Notes under the pieces: model-generated
The model's database searches: none
Told to the model about the DNA's origin: nothing
Seen by the model: only the letters and a program-made list of their open reading frames with translations
Assembly: GCA_965218095.1 (NCBI GenBank)
Contig: OZ244587.1
Span: forward strand, 5,824,001-5,888,000
Length of the DNA stretch: 64,000 nucleotides
From: Candidatus Poribacteria bacterium
GTDB lineage: Bacteria > Poribacteria > WGA-4E > PCPOR2b
Direction of reading: 5' to 3'
Made by a program: the position numbers and the translations under genes
In this document: positions 38,665-43,026 of the stretch, piece after piece
Position numbering within the stretch: the stretch's first letter is position 1
Layout: each line of letters begins with the position of its first letter

Positions 38665-39408
38665 ATGTTAGTTCGCATGTCATTTACAATAACAATCTCC
38701 ATTTTCCTAGCGGGATTGGTCTGTTGCTTTATGTTTGGCTGTGACGATCAATCAGAAGCATCTCCTGCACACCCTGAAATTCAGATCTTGCAGGTTGGTG
38801 CATTTCACAGTGATGAAGTATCCGCAAAGTCAGGTGAAGTCTGGCTGGGATTGTATCTGACGCAAAATGGATATGAGTTAATCCCTTCAAGGATTACAGT
38901 AGAAGCTGTTTATGATCCGCTAGTTGATGCTGAAGGGGAGAAAACCGGCAAAGTAGTATCGGTAAGAAGCCCAATCGAGCCGATTTTTCTGGTGCAGAGC
39001 TTGGGAATGCTGAAAAGCGGAACCGTCAAGACGCTATTTTCTGAGCAAACAATTTTGGCTCCGGGCAAGTCTCTGAGTTTTACATTTGACAACAAAGCTG
39101 AGTATTATTTGACGGCGTTTGGTGAGGGAAGCATAGATTCGACCGGGTTTACTTCACTTCAAAACTACACAGTTGAGCTATCGCGGGGACAGTTGTCACA
39201 GGTAATTCTTTCATATAGCTCGACAAATGATGCCGTACCAAGTCTCCTTTGGGCTGGGGATTTGGATCGAGACGGTAAATTGGACTTACTTGTTAACGCA
39301 ACCCCTCATTATGTCGTATATTCAGCGTCGACACTGTTTCTTTCGTCCATGGCTGAAGACGGTAAATTATTGCAGAAAGTCGCCATGTTCGTTGCTTCTG
39401 GATGTTAG
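38665..39408 (+). CDS. Hypothetical lipoprotein with FG-GAP/EF-like loop
   Basis: Lipobox-like MFGC; WAGDLDRDGKLDL; SD GAGGAGG. Confidence 0.7.
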   Translation: MLVRMSFTITISIFLAGLVCCFMFGCDDQSEASPAHPEIQILQVGAFHSDEVSAKSGEVWLGLYLTQNGYELIPSRITVEAVYDPLVDAEGEKTGKVVSVRSPIEPIFLVQSLGMLKSGTVKTLFSEQTILAPGKSLSFTFDNKAEYYLTAFGEGSIDSTGFTSLQNYTVELSRGQLSQVILSYSSTNDAVPSLLWAGDLDRDGKLDLLVNATPHYVVYSASTLFLSSMAEDGKLLQKVAMFVASGC

Positions 39409-39430
39409 TTGAACTGAGGAGGAGACTTGA

Positions 39431-41187
39431 GTGTGTTTCTGTGTAGCAAGATGTAATGGGGGTTTGAATCCCCTGACAGTAACTTGCAACTGTCAGCCTA
39501 ACCTTAACAGCGTCGCTGGAAACGGCGGGGTTGGAAGCAAAGGGACAAGGCGAACACCCTATGGGAATGTAGACCCAAAAATAGGTGTGTCAGGCTAAAG
39601 ACGGCAAGGCTAAAGCGAAAGTTGAACTGATGTTTGAAGCCCCGTTACCTCCAAACGGGTTAATCTACAAAGGGAAGAATTGAGATAACTTCCTAGTATC
39701 AGTCTGTAGACAAGAATGTCAAAGTGGCGTGGGTGACTTTTTTGTAATAAGTCACAATAGGAAGGTGTTTTCAAGTTACGCCTTCTAGCAAGTCGAATGC
39801 CATCGGGGTAAAATCAGAGCCTAAACCGTCTGCGAATGTACATCTTGTAAGAACAGGAAAGTCCCTAAGTTTCTCATTGAGAAATATGGGAGAGGAGATT
39901 CGATAGACTTATCATAACCCAAGTTGCGACCTATTCATCGAATATGTGAGTGAACTCAGAGCTGATTGATACTGCTAGCCAATACAAACAAGACCACTTT
40001 CAATTCAAATCCGTGTTGCGTTACTGCATGGATTGAACGTGGAAGCAGTTTGTTAATCAAACTGCCAGCCGTCTCAACAGACTTACGATGGTAATTAGCC
40101 AAGTAGGTCTCCCATGGTGGATACAGCCGCTTGGAATTCTTCTTGCGTACTGGCTTTAATTCGACTCCGACTGATGTAACAATATCTTCTATCTCATAAT
40201 TATTGTATGCTTTGTCACCATAGCCCGGTGGCAAGTCGAAGTCAAACCACTGTAACCCTTCAACGTCCCCTGTACTGGCTGGGGTCACAAAAAATTCAAC
40301 AGGGTGTCGACTCGCAGTCACTAGCAGATGAACTTTCAAGCCATAGAAATACCGACGTTTGGACGCTTGATAGCCTCGATATGCCTTATCGGTGTAGATT
40401 TTTGACCGACGAATGCGGAACAAACAGCAATTGGTATGGTATCCAGTGCATAGATTTTCTGTTGATTAAGTTGCACATAGCTTCGTCCCAAGATTTTGAA
40501 CAATGTGGTGAACATCGGTTTAATTCGATGAAGTCGTCGGTTGAATCGACTTTTTGAAAGCATCTTGGGTATATAGCCATGAGTCTTTAGAAAGTCACAA
40601 GTGGTTTGCAAGTTTGCCCCGAAGAACAACGCAACGACGATGCCGGTGGTCATCACTTCGGCATCAGACATCTGCGTTTGTGGGTGTGGTTTTGAGTTGA
40701 GTGCTTCTAAGAGCTTGTCACAGAGATAGAAAATGGTTGCAATTTGGATGTCCATGGGTTTCTCCTTTGGTTTCTCCTTTGAGGTATTATGGTTTGGATT
40801 ACCTCTACTTTAACGGAAAACCCATGGATTTTCAATTACTAGCAACTTGGGTTATCATAAGTCAAGCCGAATCAGAGTCATGGTTTTAGAAGGATTCTGA
40901 AATAGGTTTATCGCTACGGAGATAATCAGGGTAACATGAAACCTGTCCACCGAGCGGATTAGACATTATGTCTGAGAATCTAAAGGAATCCGGACAAAGC
41001 GGTTGCAAATAGTGATACAATAACCTGTAAAGGAAGTCTAAGGGCAACGCAACCTATCGCAACCTTAGAACCCTCAAACCATCTACAGTTTAATCGCCAC
41101 TTATGACTGGGCAAGCCGTATGCGGCGAAAGTCGCACGTACGGTTTAGAAGCAGGGAAAATTCCGCGAGAAATCTACCTATGCTTAC
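39431..41187 (+). ncRNA. ORF-less group II intron (IIB-like), interrupted by IS982 in domain III
   Basis: 5' GTGTG; canonical 34-nt DV AAGCCGTATGCGGCGAAAGTCGCACGTACGGTTT (41113-41146); DVI with bulged A 41180 and AC 3' end; EBS1 TCAAGT (39771-76) complementary to IBS1 ACTTGA (39425-30); alpha/alpha' TTGCAA/TTGTAA. Confidence 0.9.
39917..40852 (-). mobile_element. IS982 family element with frameshifted transposase (40755-39956)
   Basis: TIR ACCCAAGTTGC; 7-bp TSD TATCATA; MSDAEVMT, SRFNRR, YFYGLKVH, GDKAY, RKSVET. Confidence 0.92.
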
Positions 41188-41408
41188 TGGGGGACAAACG
41201 AAAAGAGAAGCTAGGCCTCAGATTAAGGGCATCGAAAGAATGGGTTGCGTGTTTTGGGACGAACGCAAAATCCTTAATCGAAATCCCGTGGGAAAGGGGG
41301 GTGGAGTTTTCGGCCGCAGAATGTATGGCAATTGCTGCGTCCGCACAGGAATTTCAGCGTGGTGAAAGCTCAGAAGTACGCAACAGCAACTGCGTGATAC
41401 GCCTATAG
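41188..41408 (+). CDS. 3' exon ORF (73 aa) whose ATG is formed only by splicing (A39430|TG)
   Basis: Ligated exons read GAGGAGGAGACTTG-ATG-GGG-GAC..., open to TAG at 41408; no recognisable homology. Confidence 0.35.
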
Positions 41409-41601
41409 CCATATTTCGGATAACGGGCAGATAGTTTTTCGATTTCATCTCGTAGCACTTCGTAGCACTGGTTCTAAGGGGTCGCTTTTAGGTTGATAAT
41501 AGAGACTGCTCCGATTGAAGCCGAGAACCTCACAAATGTGTCGAACCGAGTAATCGGTATGTAAAGCCTCAACTATCTGTCGCTTTTGAGACCGATTCAA
41601 G

Positions 41602-41959
41602 TCAGCCAAGTCGAGGCTTTTTTTGGATGTCTAATGCCAGGGTCAATCGACCGACGAGTTGCTCCAGTTGAGCAATCCGCTCTTTAGAGTCGTTGGATTG
41701 CTTATCAGTGGATTCAAAGAGAATCGCTGCGTTGTCAAGGAGTTGGTGTTTCCACTTTGATAGTTGTTCTTCGCTGAGGTTATGCTGTCGACAGAGTTGC
41801 GCTTGTGAACTTTGGTTGGTAAGTGCCTCAATAACGACTTCCGCCTTAAATTGGGGTGTGAATCTTCTTCGTTTTGCCATCGGATTCTCCTTTCAATCTG
41901 ACTGTCATTGTATCACAATCTTGGTTTAGACAATGGGCTAAATTTCCGATGGCAGTACA
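41602..41959 (-). mobile_element. IS3 family left end and OrfA (41880-41602), truncated
   Basis: TGTACTGCC...AATTTAG terminal repeat; MAKRRRFTPQFKAEVV HTH. Confidence 0.85.
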
Positions 41960-42420
41960 GTAATTTAGACCACAAATAAGCAAAGTTAAACCAAGTGTTG
42001 TTGCTCAAATTCACTCGGCGTCAAATACCCTAACGCCGAGTGAGGTCGTTTCTGGTTATAAACTTGTCCAATAAAATGCCCGATTCGCGCTCTGGCATCC
42101 ATTATATCATCGTAGCCATTGAGATACACCTCTTCCTCCTTGAGGGTTCTTATCAGTCTTTCGGCGTAGCCGTTCTCCCACGGACACCCCCGATGGGCTA
42201 AGGAGATGTCAATCCCATGACCGATGAGAGTGGAAATATAAGCTGTCGAAAGATACTCAACTCCCTGGTCGCTAGGGTGAATCTCTGGAATGCTTTGGCT
42301 TAATGCCTGTTGCAACGGTCTCAATGTGAGAGGTTGTGTCAACTGCCGACTCAGTTGCCAGCCTCTTCCCATTCGAGTCAATACATCGATTAACACCGAA
42401 ACATAGATGAATTGCCCCCC
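41960..42420 (-). mobile_element. IS3 family integrase-core (OrfB) 3' remnant with partial right IR
   Basis: SDQG, ENGYAERLIRTLKEE, YNQKRPHSALGYLTP; partial IR GTGGTCTAAATTAC. Confidence 0.85.
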
Positions 42421-43026
42421 CGATAAGATCGGGATTCAAAGCAACTTGAGATGTTGCGCAATGCGAGTTTTGACAAAAACCTTCCCTTTACAACCGTTTT
42501 AGTTGACAGTTGGTATGCCTCCCGTCAAGTGCTTGTTTACATTCAACGGCTTGAAAAGGTCTACTATTGTCCGCTAAAGAGCAACCGTCGTGTTGACGAT
42601 TCGGATGGCAAACACCCACACCAAAGAATTGACCAACTCAACTGGAGTGAAACCCAACAGACCCATGGGAAATCCATCCACCTGAAGAATTTCCCCAAAG
42701 GTCATCGAGTGAAGTTTGTGCGCTCCACCGAGCGCACGGAATATGTCGTGACCAACGACCTCACTCAAGATTCGACGACTCGTTGGAAGATTGAGCAATT
42801 TCACCGACAAGCCAAACAGGTCACCGGTCTTCAACGCTGCCAGTGTCGCAAACAGAGGGGGGTGAGAAATCATATTGGGTGTTCGATGTGAGTCCGGGTC
42901 AAACTCAATCGTCTTGCCCGTCAGACCGGCAAGATGATTTACCAACTCAAGGAGTCACTGCTTGACGATTATCTGCGTCAGCAACTGCTTTCACCTTTTA
43001 TTCCAATGACTCTTGCGTAAGTCCTA
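42421..43026 (+). mobile_element. IS701 family transposase 3' remnant
   Basis: VLVDSWYA, YYCPLKSNR, RWKIEQFHRQAKQVTG, CQCRK..RNHI; end TGCGTAAGTCCT. Confidence 0.8.

What the first reader, a model, noticed from the sequence alone, without database searches (positions are those of the whole stretch)
39415..41200. ORF-less group II intron that splits an A|TG start codon and appears to read the Shine-Dalgarno sequence as its target
Seen: the 5' exon ends GAGGAGGAGACTTGA and the intron starts GTGTG at 39431. The intron ends ...CCTATGCTTAC at 41187 and the 3' exon starts TG. Splicing rebuilds an SD, a 5-nt spacer and an ATG in frame with a 73-codon ORF. EBS1 TCAAGT lies in the loop of GAAGGTGT...ACGCCTTC (39761-39785) and is perfectly complementary to IBS1 ACTTGA. 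Two domain-I loops carry anti-SD-like sequences, ACCTCC (39647-52) and CTTCCT (39689-94), either of which could be EBS2 pairing with the SD. The alpha/alpha' pair, DV and the DVI branch A are intact. DIV (about 40875-41108) has no RT ORF, and the intron is about 814 nt without the IS. Established: some bacterial IIB lineages favour translation start/stop signals, and ORF-less introns can use maturases in trans. Inference: this is a non-autonomous ribozyme that targets ribosome-binding sites and makes downstream translation depend on splicing.
Basis: partly seen in the sequence, partly recalled or inferred. Interest (0 to 1): 0.85.

Follow-up and report, generated by a model that had tools for sequence, protein, structure and literature searches.

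The report
Group II intron splitting start codon
A self-splicing (group II) intron, now itself broken by a jumping gene, sits exactly on the start codon of a gene and pairs with that gene's ribosome-binding site, and its many relatives in sponge-symbiont genomes show that this is a recurrent habit of the family.

Summary
Window 39431-41187 (+) is an ORF-less IIB group II intron: Rfam DV/DVI 58.5 bits and D1 38.5 bits. It is 814 nt once a 940-nt IS5-like element in the D3 loop is removed. It belongs to a family with 15 copies in this genome and more in 'Candidatus Poribacteria' genomes.

EBS2 is the ACCUCCA loop (39647-53), which pairs with GGAGG at -13..-9. Across 28 copies, 90% of cells pair, against 48% in shuffles. 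CTTCCT is only a local stem.

Of 36 distinct sites, 12 have a Shine-Dalgarno-like IBS2 and 8 also have an ATG within 4 nt (background 0.6%). Some precede real genes: an SDR, an Nramp-like gene, oligopeptidase F and GFO/IDH/MocA. The other sites are IS ends, coding sequence or unrelated sequence.

The 73-codon ORF is the real N-terminus of a conserved protein family, cut off at about codon 63 by an IS3-like element. The genome's only maturase gene is frameshifted. No spliced junction was seen.

So this copy is most likely a relic, and splicing-gated translation remains an inference.

Unexpected: many copies carry two tandem EBS1-like hairpins, and either one can match IBS1.

The parts
39416..39424 (+). 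Shine-Dalgarno run GAGGAGGAG of the 5' exon. IBS2 = GGAGG at 39418-39422 (-13..-9).
   Evidence: Pairs with EBS2. The 16S rRNA 3' end of this genome is ...GGATCACCTCCTTT.
39425..39430 (+). IBS1 ACTTGA. Its last base A (39430) is the first base of the split start codon.
39431..41187 (+). ORF-less IIB group II intron: 1757 nt, or 814 nt without the IS and one copy of the target duplication.
   Evidence: Rfam hits. Boundaries shared with paralogs. Length.
39641..39659 (+). EBS2 hairpin CCCGTT-ACCTCCA-AACGGG. EBS2 = CCTCC at 39648-39652.
   Evidence: Formal covariation with exon -13..-9: 90% of 140 cells paired against 47.9% in shuffles (0 of 500 reach it).
39672..39694 (+). Variable D1 hairpin GGGAAG-AATTGAGATAA-CTTCCT.
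   Evidence: The hairpin is missing in copies B, C, H, I, S and N.
39733..39755 (+). hp1, the first EBS1-like hairpin (GTGACTT-TTTTGTAAT-AAGTCAC). Not complementary to this site.
39760..39786 (+). hp2, the second EBS1-like hairpin (GGAAGGTGT-TTTCAAGTT-ACGCCTTCT). EBS1 = TCAAGT at 39771-39776, 6/6 with IBS1.
39811..39811 (+). Candidate EBS3 (A), pairing with the first base of the 3' exon (T, 41188).
   Evidence: This alignment column is Watson-Crick to exon +1 in 24 of 33 copies and shows 4 different letters. Suggestive only.
39862..39891 (+). Domain II hairpin.
   Evidence: RNAalifold on 13 compact copies.
39897..40873 (+). Domain III (GATTCG...CGAATC) with a distal stem GACTT/AAGTC. The IS sits in the terminal loop of that stem.
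   Evidence: The distal stem is absent in copies N, L030 and L057.
39915..40854 (-). IS5-like insertion sequence of 940 nt. Two overlapping transposase ORFs on the minus strand, inverted repeats, and a TCA duplication at 39912-14 and 40855-57.
   Evidence: Inverted repeats. DDE_Tnp_1_3 at 1.7e-07. The same IS lies in paralog D and truncates paralog L.
40877..41108 (+). Domain IV, without an RT ORF. Boundaries are approximate.
41113..41146 (+). Domain V.
41149..41185 (+). Domain VI. The bulged branch-point A is at 41180.
41188..41408 (+). 3' exon ORF: TG completes the ATG, giving 73 codons. Homology to a conserved protein family runs to about codon 63 (about 41376). The last codons and the stop come from an IS3-like repeat that starts at 41377.
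   Evidence: The repeat boundary is shown by a depth jump and loose ends at 41377. IS3-type ORFs lie downstream.

Best explanation
The element is a non-autonomous (ORF-less) member of a IIB group II intron family found mainly in genomes labelled 'Candidatus Poribacteria'. Two other records also hold it: one labelled 'uncultured bacterium' and one Bathyarchaeum contig.

It was inserted by RNA-guided reverse splicing, a mechanism inferred from the family, into the translation-initiation region of a protein gene. Three pairings define the site:
- EBS1 (loop of hairpin hp2) pairs with -6..-1.
- EBS2 (CCUCC, part of the loop ACCUCCA, whose first six bases match the 16S anti-SD) pairs with the Shine-Dalgarno GGAGG at -13..-9.
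- A single base probably pairs with +1.

The intron therefore lies between the A and the TG of the start codon.

In the family as a whole, EBS2 is often complementary to SD-like purine runs. Insertion 8-9 nt downstream then lands on or beside start codons. This is a recurrent habit of the family but not an obligatory one.

The window's copy is most likely a relic:
- An IS5-like element sits in its D3 loop.
- The host gene is truncated at about codon 63 by an IS3-like element.
- The only maturase gene found in the genome is frameshifted.

Two steps are mechanistic inference and not shown. The first is that unspliced RNA has its SD sequestered and its start codon split. The second is that splicing would restore SD, a 5-nt spacer and AUG.
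For: Identity and boundaries: Rfam hits. There are 15 family 5' ends in the genome, and 12 other full-length copies share both boundaries.

EBS2/IBS2: 28 copies, 140 cells, 90% paired against 47.9% in shuffles (0 of 500 reach it). 64 cells have changes on both sides against 17 in shuffles. Slid controls give 27-53%.

EBS1: 6/6 here. Non-cognate pairs reach this in 9 of 540 comparisons.

16S 3' end: CACCUCCUUU.

Site statistics: 12 of 36 distinct sites carry an SD 5-mer at -17..-4 (background 3.6%). 8 of 36 also have an ATG at -4..+4 (background 0.63%, binomial 7e-11). Given an SD, 8 of 12 have the ATG against 18% expected (2.6e-4). A second, more sensitive search added 8 new sites, 2 of them SD-like.

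Real genes at the junction:
- L024: 1 nt before the ATG of an SDR.
- L044: after ATGG of an Nramp-like gene.
- L072: directly after the ATG of oligopeptidase F.
- Copy F: directly before the ATG of a GFO/IDH/MocA gene.

ORF reality: 87 other proteins at E<=1e-3 align to residues about 10-65, mostly at their N-termini.

Decay: the IS, the IS3 boundary at 41377, one GIIM hit in the genome, and that RT ORF split into pieces aligning to 1-220 and 239-576 of an intact relative.
Against: 24 of 36 sites have no SD-like 5-mer. They include a large subfamily at IS ends and a conserved ...AAGTGCG site.

Two SD-like sites are inside coding sequence: H/I in a transposase and S at profile position 39 of Peripla_BP_6.

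The copies are related, so the binomial tests overstate independence.

In this genome the ORFs after the SD-type sites are short or carry in-frame stops.

The 72-residue query found no relative in the 60 related genomes searched, and no homolog in the word-indexed protein search apart from the caller's own 101-aa prediction of this same ORF.

The Pfam matches of the homologs to ferritin-like families are all below the curated cut-offs.

The IS lies in a peripheral loop, so loss of ribozyme activity is not proven. The frameshift in the maturase gene could be an assembly error.
Confidence: 0.75

Rival explanations
1. The start-codon association is a by-product. An ancestral EBS2 happened to match AAGGA/GGAGG, descendants kept it, and such motifs are simply common 8-9 nt before start codons. 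On this view there is no selection for, and no function at, ribosome-binding sites.
For: SD-like sites inside coding sequence (H/I, S). Many lineages have left SD-like targets. The SD-type copies in this genome cluster in the tree.
Against: At least six different EBS2 pentamers (CCUUU, UCCUU, UUCCU, CUUCC, CCUCC, UCUCC) pair with SD variants in different registers, so EBS2 was retargeted repeatedly yet stayed on SD-like sequence. Given an SD-like 5-mer, an ATG within 4 nt occurs in 8 of 12 sites against 18% expected in this genome. SD-type sites sit on basal branches as well as derived ones (midpoint root only).
Confidence: 0.3
2. The window's copy is still a working switch. It splices, by itself or with a maturase supplied in trans, despite the IS, and so gates translation of the downstream ORF.
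For: Core motifs are intact: GUGUG, DV, DVI with a bulged A, and perfect EBS1 and EBS2 pairings. The IS sits in the terminal loop of a D3 stem that other family members lack altogether. An RNA-library contig covers 41020-41244, so the region may be transcribed.
Against: That contig is unspliced, and DNA carry-over cannot be excluded. The downstream gene is truncated at about codon 63. The only GIIM-containing ORF in the genome is frameshifted. This copy has the longest end branch in its clade, 0.18.
Confidence: 0.1
3. The 73-codon ORF is a chance reading frame and the intron simply lies in an intergenic spacer after the upstream gene. The A|TG would then be a coincidence.
For: No Pfam hit for the ORF. 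No match in the 60 related genomes searched. Only itself in the word-indexed protein search.
Against: An exhaustive HMMER search found 88 proteins at E<=1e-3. The best other hit is 1.8e-10 at 61% identity, and the shared motifs are IPWERG...AIAAS.Q.FQ.GESSEG. The homology stops where an IS3-like repeat begins.
Confidence: 0.05

Closest known systems
Specialised IIB1 lineage at start or stop codons (Michel, Costa, Doucet & Ferat 2007, Biochimie 89:542; examples Avi.groEL and EcKTE56.groEL). I know it only from the introduction, results passages and discussion of Gomes et al. 2025, PMC12584367. The 2007 paper itself is not held.
   Same: IIB-type ribozyme. Insertion within or next to initiation codons of protein genes. 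Autonomous members encode an RT with an endonuclease domain.
   Different: That lineage is defined by a 300-700 nt 5'-subterminal insertion (subdomain Ia) and is described from proteobacteria. Here the whole ribozyme is 715-814 nt, with only 15-20 nt hairpins at that place, and the hosts are poribacterial genomes. Gomes et al. state that how those introns colonise start and stop codons is unknown. Here EBS2-SD pairing offers a concrete route. No stop-codon sites were seen.
Thermosynechococcus elongatus TeI3/TeI4 intron families (Mohr, Ghanem & Lambowitz 2010, PMC2882425; passages read).
   Same: Many copies in one genome. Families with diverged EBS1/2/3. ORF-less derivatives that depend on a relative's protein. 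Copies inside IS elements and inside other introns. The intact family protein (L044, 580 aa) is closest among solved structures to chain 6ME0_C, 'Maturase reverse transcriptase', 2e-98. That 6ME0 is TeI4h is my recollection, not a tool result.
   Different: A different host phylum. SD/start-codon bias of target sites. Tandem EBS1-like hairpins. No intact protein gene found in this genome.
Rfam RF00029 (Intron_gpII) and RF02012 (group-II-D1D4-7).
   Same: Both models match above their gathering scores.
   Different: The models cover only DV/DVI and the 5' third of D1. They say nothing about EBS loops or target choice.
ORF-less introns spliced by a maturase encoded elsewhere (Trichodesmium dnaN/RIR introns, as summarised in PMC12584367).
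   Same: ORF-less copies in protein genes that would need a protein supplied in trans.
   Different: In this genome the only candidate supplier (copy C) is frameshifted.

Membership tests
Group II intron, IIB structural class | 5' GUGYG and 3' AY ends | tested here: met
   GUGUG at 39431 and ...UUAC at 41187. Paralogs start GUGCG and mostly end ...AUAC or ...UUAC.
Group II intron, IIB structural class | Domain V and domain VI with a bulged branch A | tested here: met
   RF00029 at 58.5 bits, cut-off 40. The consensus fold leaves A41180 unpaired.
Group II intron, IIB structural class | Domain I of a known subtype | tested here: met
   RF02012 at 38.5 bits, cut-off 34.
Group II intron, IIB structural class | EBS1-IBS1 pairing with -6..-1 | tested here: met
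   6/6 in this copy. 14 of 17 two-hairpin copies have a full match in one of the loops, against 9 of 540 non-cognate comparisons.
Group II intron, IIB structural class | EBS2-IBS2 pairing upstream of IBS1 | tested here: met
   Covariation over 28 copies: 90% paired, 0 of 500 shuffles reach it.
Group II intron, IIB structural class | EBS3-IBS3 (one base with exon +1) | tested here: inconclusive
   One D1 column is Watson-Crick to +1 in 24 of 33 copies. No control was run.
Group II intron, IIB structural class | Splicing at the predicted junctions | not testable with these tools
   Only contigs of public runs could be laid, and they cannot show rare joined forms.
Group II intron, IIB structural class | Intron-encoded RT/maturase in domain IV | tested here: not met
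   No ORF in DIV of this copy. Relatives L034, L044, L051 and L055 have ORFs of 583-615 codons. Only L044's was scanned: RVT_N, RVT_1, GIIM, HNH. ORF-less derivatives are a known state of the class.
Specialised IIB1 start/stop-codon lineage (Michel et al. 2007) | Insertion within or next to initiation or termination codons | tested here: met
   A|TG here. Starts of real genes at F, L024, L044 and L072. This holds for a subset of the family only.
Specialised IIB1 start/stop-codon lineage (Michel et al. 2007) | [quoted passage not shown] | tested here: not met
   The whole ribozyme is 715-814 nt, and the 5' region holds two hairpins of about 15-20 nt.
Specialised IIB1 start/stop-codon lineage (Michel et al. 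2007) | Monophyly with Avi.groEL-type introns | not tested
IS5-like insertion sequence (the interrupting element) | DDE transposase, terminal inverted repeats, short target duplication | tested here: met
   DDE_Tnp_1_3 at 1.7e-07. 22-nt inverted repeats, 95% complementary. TCA duplication inferred from the uninterrupted paralogs.

The most novel reading that the evidence does not exclude
This poribacterial intron family is an RNA-guided retroelement specialised for translation-initiation regions. Its EBS2 loop imitates the 16S anti-Shine-Dalgarno sequence, so new copies land on or beside start codons. There the unspliced RNA hides the SD and splits or displaces the AUG, which makes translation conditional on splicing. 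The family also carries a tandem second EBS1 hairpin that acts as a spare guide. One hairpin keeps the element spliceable at its resident site, while the other is free to mutate and open new sites. Copies K and O show this: their ribozymes are nearly identical, and each sits at a site matched by a different hairpin.
Probability: 0.3. Interest if true: 0.85.

Novelty: new variant of a known kind. Interest (0 to 1): 0.62.

Why it matters
Group II introns at start or stop codons have been known since 2007. However, Gomes et al. 2025 say that how they colonise those sites is unknown. This family offers a sequence-level route that can be tested directly: an EBS2 complementary to the ribosome-binding site. 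There are dozens of natural 'experiments', meaning different EBS2 registers and different genes, and intact protein-coding members are available in related genomes.

The two tandem EBS1-like hairpins, either of which can match the exon, would be a new way for a retroelement to change target without losing the ability to splice from its present site. That is also relevant to engineered targetrons.

The window's own copy, however, is an ordinary decayed mobile element in an IS-rich stretch.

Tried and rejected
**Spliced junction.** I laid contigs of two RNA runs (sponge metatranscriptomes) and two DNA runs on 39250-41450. No joint 39430->41188 was listed in any run. Contigs drop rare forms, so this says nothing either way. 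One RNA-library contig (X10 record 6, 225 nt, depth 3.7) covers 41020-41244 unspliced. DNA contigs of two other studies bridge the 5' junction (X2 record 17, 39250-39943; X3 record 25, 39250-39809). No intron-free or IS-free allele of this locus was seen. The 943-946-nt 'skips' come from diverged paralogs (16 other letters).

**Intron-free allele.** The 72-residue query found nothing in the 60 related genomes searched.

**Cyanobacterial origin.** Rejected, because no Photo_RC match was found in the genome.

**TAG recoding.** In-frame TAG codons occur in three intron-adjacent genes. Genome-wide, long ORFs ending in TAG are followed by another long open stretch only slightly more often than those ending in TAA or TGA (8.8% against 6.4% and 5.8%). 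Rejected.

**Pfam on the ORF after copy B.** No family found, with or without reading its TAG as X.

**EBS3 in the first 215 nt of D1.** No convincing column. One candidate was found further 3'.

**Hairpin duplication by sequence.** hp1 and hp2 are clearly alike only in copy H/I (18 of 27 identical, 0 of 361 control 27-mers reach this). The likeness is marginal in K and F and absent in six others. A duplication origin is therefore suggested, not shown.

**Literature.** Seven searches were answered. None found a paper that links EBS2 to the Shine-Dalgarno or anti-SD sequence, describes two EBS1 hairpins, or treats group II introns of Poribacteria. The library lacks most subscription journals, including Michel et al. 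2007, so 'not in print' is not established. Supplementary files were not requested.

**Not used.** No structure prediction, complex prediction or Atlas search was needed.
Full report
**What is at the coordinates.** Rfam at gathering thresholds finds DV/DVI of a group II intron at 41111-41187 (58.5 bits, cut-off 40) and a D1 model, group-II-D1D4-7, at 39475-39612 (38.5 bits, cut-off 34) on the + strand. Between them lies a 940-nt IS5-like element on the minus strand. It has a DDE_Tnp_1_3 transposase (1.7e-07) and 22-nt inverted repeats. Comparison with uninterrupted paralogs places it at window 39915-40854 with a TCA duplication. Without it the intron is 814 nt and has no RT ORF. A consensus fold of 13 compact copies gives D2 at 39862-39891, D3 at 39897-40873, D5 at 41113-41146 and D6 with an unpaired A at 41180. 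The IS sits in the terminal loop of a distal D3 stem that some family members lack altogether.

**A large family gives the controls.** The window is part of a 6.35-Mb single-contig genome.
- BLAST and a profile search find 15 copies with a family 5' end, one 5'-truncated copy and three more distant introns.
- Rfam DV/DVI matches 23 places.
- Thirteen copies are full length (715-2452 nt). Several are hit by IS elements, including the same IS in copies D and L.
- An exact-pattern scan of one genome per species found 36 more loci. Nearly all are in records titled 'Candidatus Poribacteria bacterium'.
- A BLAST-type search found the family in 10 of 24 genomes of the same taxonomic family and in 0 of 16 genomes of three other families of the order.
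- The RNA runs that hold parts of the stretch are labelled sponge metagenome. The genome has no photosynthetic reaction-centre gene.

**Which loop is EBS2.** In an alignment of exon -16..-1 plus the first 240 nt of 28 copies, exon positions -13..-9 pair with five loop bases. These correspond to window 39648-39652 (CCTCC).
- 90% of 140 cells pair, against 47.9% in shuffles (0 of 500 reach it).
- 64 cells have changes on both sides, against 17 in shuffles.
- Slid controls pair in 27-53% of cells.

Examples are AAAGG/CCUUU, UAAGG/CCUUA, GGAAG/CUUCC, CCCAA/UUGGG, CCUAA/UUAGG, GCGUA/UACGC, GACAU/AUGUC and UCACA/UGUGA. Six bases of that loop, ACCUCC, are identical to part of this genome's 16S 3' end ...GGAUCACCUCCUUU. 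A D1 column (window 39811) is complementary to the first base of the 3' exon in 24 of 33 copies. This supports the 3' boundary but was not controlled.

**Are Shine-Dalgarno sites and start codons the target?** I called a site SD-like if -17..-4 holds any 5-mer of TAAGGAGGT.
- Random positions of this genome are SD-like in 3.6% of cases. They have an ATG starting at -4..+4 in 14%, and both in 0.63%.
- Among 36 distinct sites (47 copies collapsed by their last 14 exon bases), 12 are SD-like and 8 have both (binomial 7e-11).
- Given an SD, 8 of 12 have the ATG against 18% expected (2.6e-4).
- In this genome, 7 of 14 distinct sites are SD-like (A, B, C, F, H/I, S, T). Four have the ATG: B at +3, C as A|TG, F as |ATG and T as A|TG.
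- The copies are kin, so these probabilities are too optimistic.
- The later search gave 25 complete 5' ends. Seventeen were already known and 8 were new. Two of the new ones are SD-like.

**Where the SD-like sites lie.**
- Real gene starts at the junction:
  - L024: intron 1 nt before the ATG of a 277-aa SDR (adh_short from residue 7).
  - L044: after ATGG of a 499-codon Nramp-like gene.
  - L051: 3 nt before the ATG of an ORF of at least 100 codons, with no Pfam hit.
  - L072: directly after the ATG of an oligopeptidase F gene.
  - Copy F: directly before the ATG of a GFO/IDH/MocA gene that carries an in-frame TAG at codon 18.
- Inside coding sequence: H/I in a transposase, and S at profile position 39 of a periplasmic binding protein.
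- Not SD-like (24 of 36):
  - A monophyletic subfamily (support 88/99) inserts at ...ATAACCCAAGTTGCTAG|, the end of the same IS family as in the window.
  - Another group uses ...AAGTGCG|.

In a midpoint-rooted tree the SD-type sites occupy basal branches as well as the clade that holds the window's copy. Several different EBS2 pentamers all pair with SD variants in shifted registers. I read this as a recurrent habit that goes beyond inheritance of one EBS2, but not as a rule.

**The host ORF.**
- The 73-codon ORF had no Pfam hit.
- The 72-residue query found no match in the 60 related genomes searched.
- It had no homolog in the word-indexed protein search apart from the caller's own 101-aa prediction of this same ORF.
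- The exhaustive HMMER search found 88 proteins at E<=1e-3. The best other hit is 1.8e-10 at 61% identity. Most align to ORF residues about 10-65 at their own N-termini.
- The hits are proteins of 130-300 aa sharing ...IPWERG...AIAAS.Q.FQ.GESSEG..., followed by an EEQRHA motif.
- Four of the ten scanned have ferritin-like, rubrerythrin or AurF matches, all below the curated cut-offs.
- In the window the likeness stops after GESSE. There a high-copy repeat begins at 41377: DNA depth rises from 28 and 16 to 543 and 390, and all four runs show loose ends at that place. IS3-type ORFs follow.

So the A|TG is a credible true start of a real gene that has since been cut off at about codon 63.

**Can it still work?** Only one maturase (GIIM) domain was found in the genome, in copy C. 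Its RT ORF is in two frames, which align to residues 1-220 and 239-576 of the intact 580-aa protein of L044. That protein has RVT_N, RVT_1, GIIM and HNH domains. It is closest among solved structures to chain 6ME0_C at 2e-98. No spliced junction was seen, but the available data (contigs) cannot show one. I therefore rate this copy as a probable relic. Sequestration of the SD and splicing-dependent translation are inferences.

**An unexpected feature.** Between EBS2 and the end of D1, many copies have two adjacent hairpins, each with an 8-9-bp stem and a 9-nt loop. In the window these are hp1 (39733-39755) and hp2 (39760-39786). Other copies have one.
- Among 17 curated two-hairpin copies, the exon's -6..-1 is fully complementary (6 pairs, at most one G-U) to the hp1 loop in 6 and to the hp2 loop in 9.
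- 14 of 17 match at least one loop, one matches both, and three match neither.
- Non-cognate pairs reach this level in 9 of 540 comparisons and random hexamers in 1.2%.
- Copies K and O differ at 4 of the first 450 aligned columns and not at all in either hairpin. K sits after AGAATA (matched by hp2, UAUUCU) and O after TAGCAG (matched by hp1, CUGCUA).
- Sequence likeness between the two hairpins is clear only in copy H/I.

My searches of the held literature found no description of two EBS1 hairpins.

**Comparison with what is known.**
- Closest in habit is the specialised IIB1 lineage of Michel et al. 2007, at start and stop codons of housekeeping genes. I know it only through Gomes et al. 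2025. Its defining 300-700-nt 5' insertion is absent here, its hosts are proteobacteria, and its way of finding those codons is stated to be unknown.
- Closest in genome behaviour are the T. elongatus TeI3/TeI4 families, with diverged EBS families, ORF-less derivatives, and copies in IS elements and in other introns.

I file the element as a group II IIB intron, and the family as a new variant with two notable traits: an SD-complementary EBS2 and tandem EBS1-like hairpins.

Noticed in passing
window 39733-39786; own-genome copies K (G000:C1:3601485) and O (G000:C1:4514987); loci L029, L034, L044, L051, L057: Two tandem EBS1-like hairpins (8-9-bp stem, 9-nt loop) in D1. IBS1 matches the first loop in 6 and the second in 9 of 17 copies, against 9 of 540 non-cognate comparisons. 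K and O are nearly identical ribozymes at two sites, each matched by a different hairpin.
   Followed up: partly
loci L025, L028, L030-L033, L037-L040, L045, L047, L050, L052-L054, L056, L058; window 40839-40857 (minus strand): A monophyletic ORF-less subfamily in other poribacterial genomes inserts after ...ATAACCCAAGTTGCTAG. That sequence is the inner edge of the terminal repeat of the same IS family that interrupts the window's intron. The matching site in the window's IS is unoccupied. Introns target the IS, and the IS targets introns.
   Followed up: partly
L060:580-2390 (G000:C1:598679-600489): The only RT/maturase ORF found in the genome (copy C) is split by one frameshift between residues about 220 and 239 of its intact relatives. 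It may be real or an assembly error.
   Followed up: partly
window 41377-42891: A cluster of IS fragments directly after the truncated ORF: IS3-type orfA (41602-41880, minus strand), pieces of an rve integrase (41445-41609 and 41986-42396, minus strand) and a DDE_Tnp_1 fragment (42451-42891, plus strand). The repeat boundary at 41377 is seen as a depth jump in four public runs.
   Followed up: partly
L064:52-54; L062 (codon 46 of the ORF after copy B); L066 (codons 85 and 242): Genes next to own-genome intron copies F, B and S carry in-frame stop codons (TAG in all three, and TGA as well in S). Genome-wide statistics do not support TAG recoding, so these look like decaying genes.
   Followed up: yes
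G000:C1:4514940-4514986 (5' flank of copy O): The 5' exon of copy O resembles a degenerate domain V (...ATGAAAGTCGCACGAAGTAT...). O may therefore be inserted near the 3' end of another, decayed group II intron.
   Followed up: no
G000:C1:4703362-4704123 (copy Q): The same 14 nt, CTATCCAAAACGTT, precede the 5' end of copy Q and span its 3' end. Its 3' boundary is therefore uncertain, and the arrangement is unexplained.
   Followed up: no
G000:C1:1927835 and 2598356 (copies H and I): Two copies with identical flanks lie inside a DDE_Tnp_1 transposase gene. The intron has been duplicated along with its host IS.
   Followed up: partly
run X11, loose end before 39431: An RNA-library contig joins a family 5' end to ...CCAAGTTGCCACCTTAGAAAGGAAATAACT. 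That is an IS-end-like word followed by an SD-like AAAGGA at -13..-8: another SD-type site, apparently just inside an IS.
   Followed up: no
window 40751-40774: A 12-nt tandem duplication (GGTTTCTCCTTT twice) in the window's IS copy, relative to the copy in paralog D. It duplicates the complement of the transposase's SD region.
   Followed up: no
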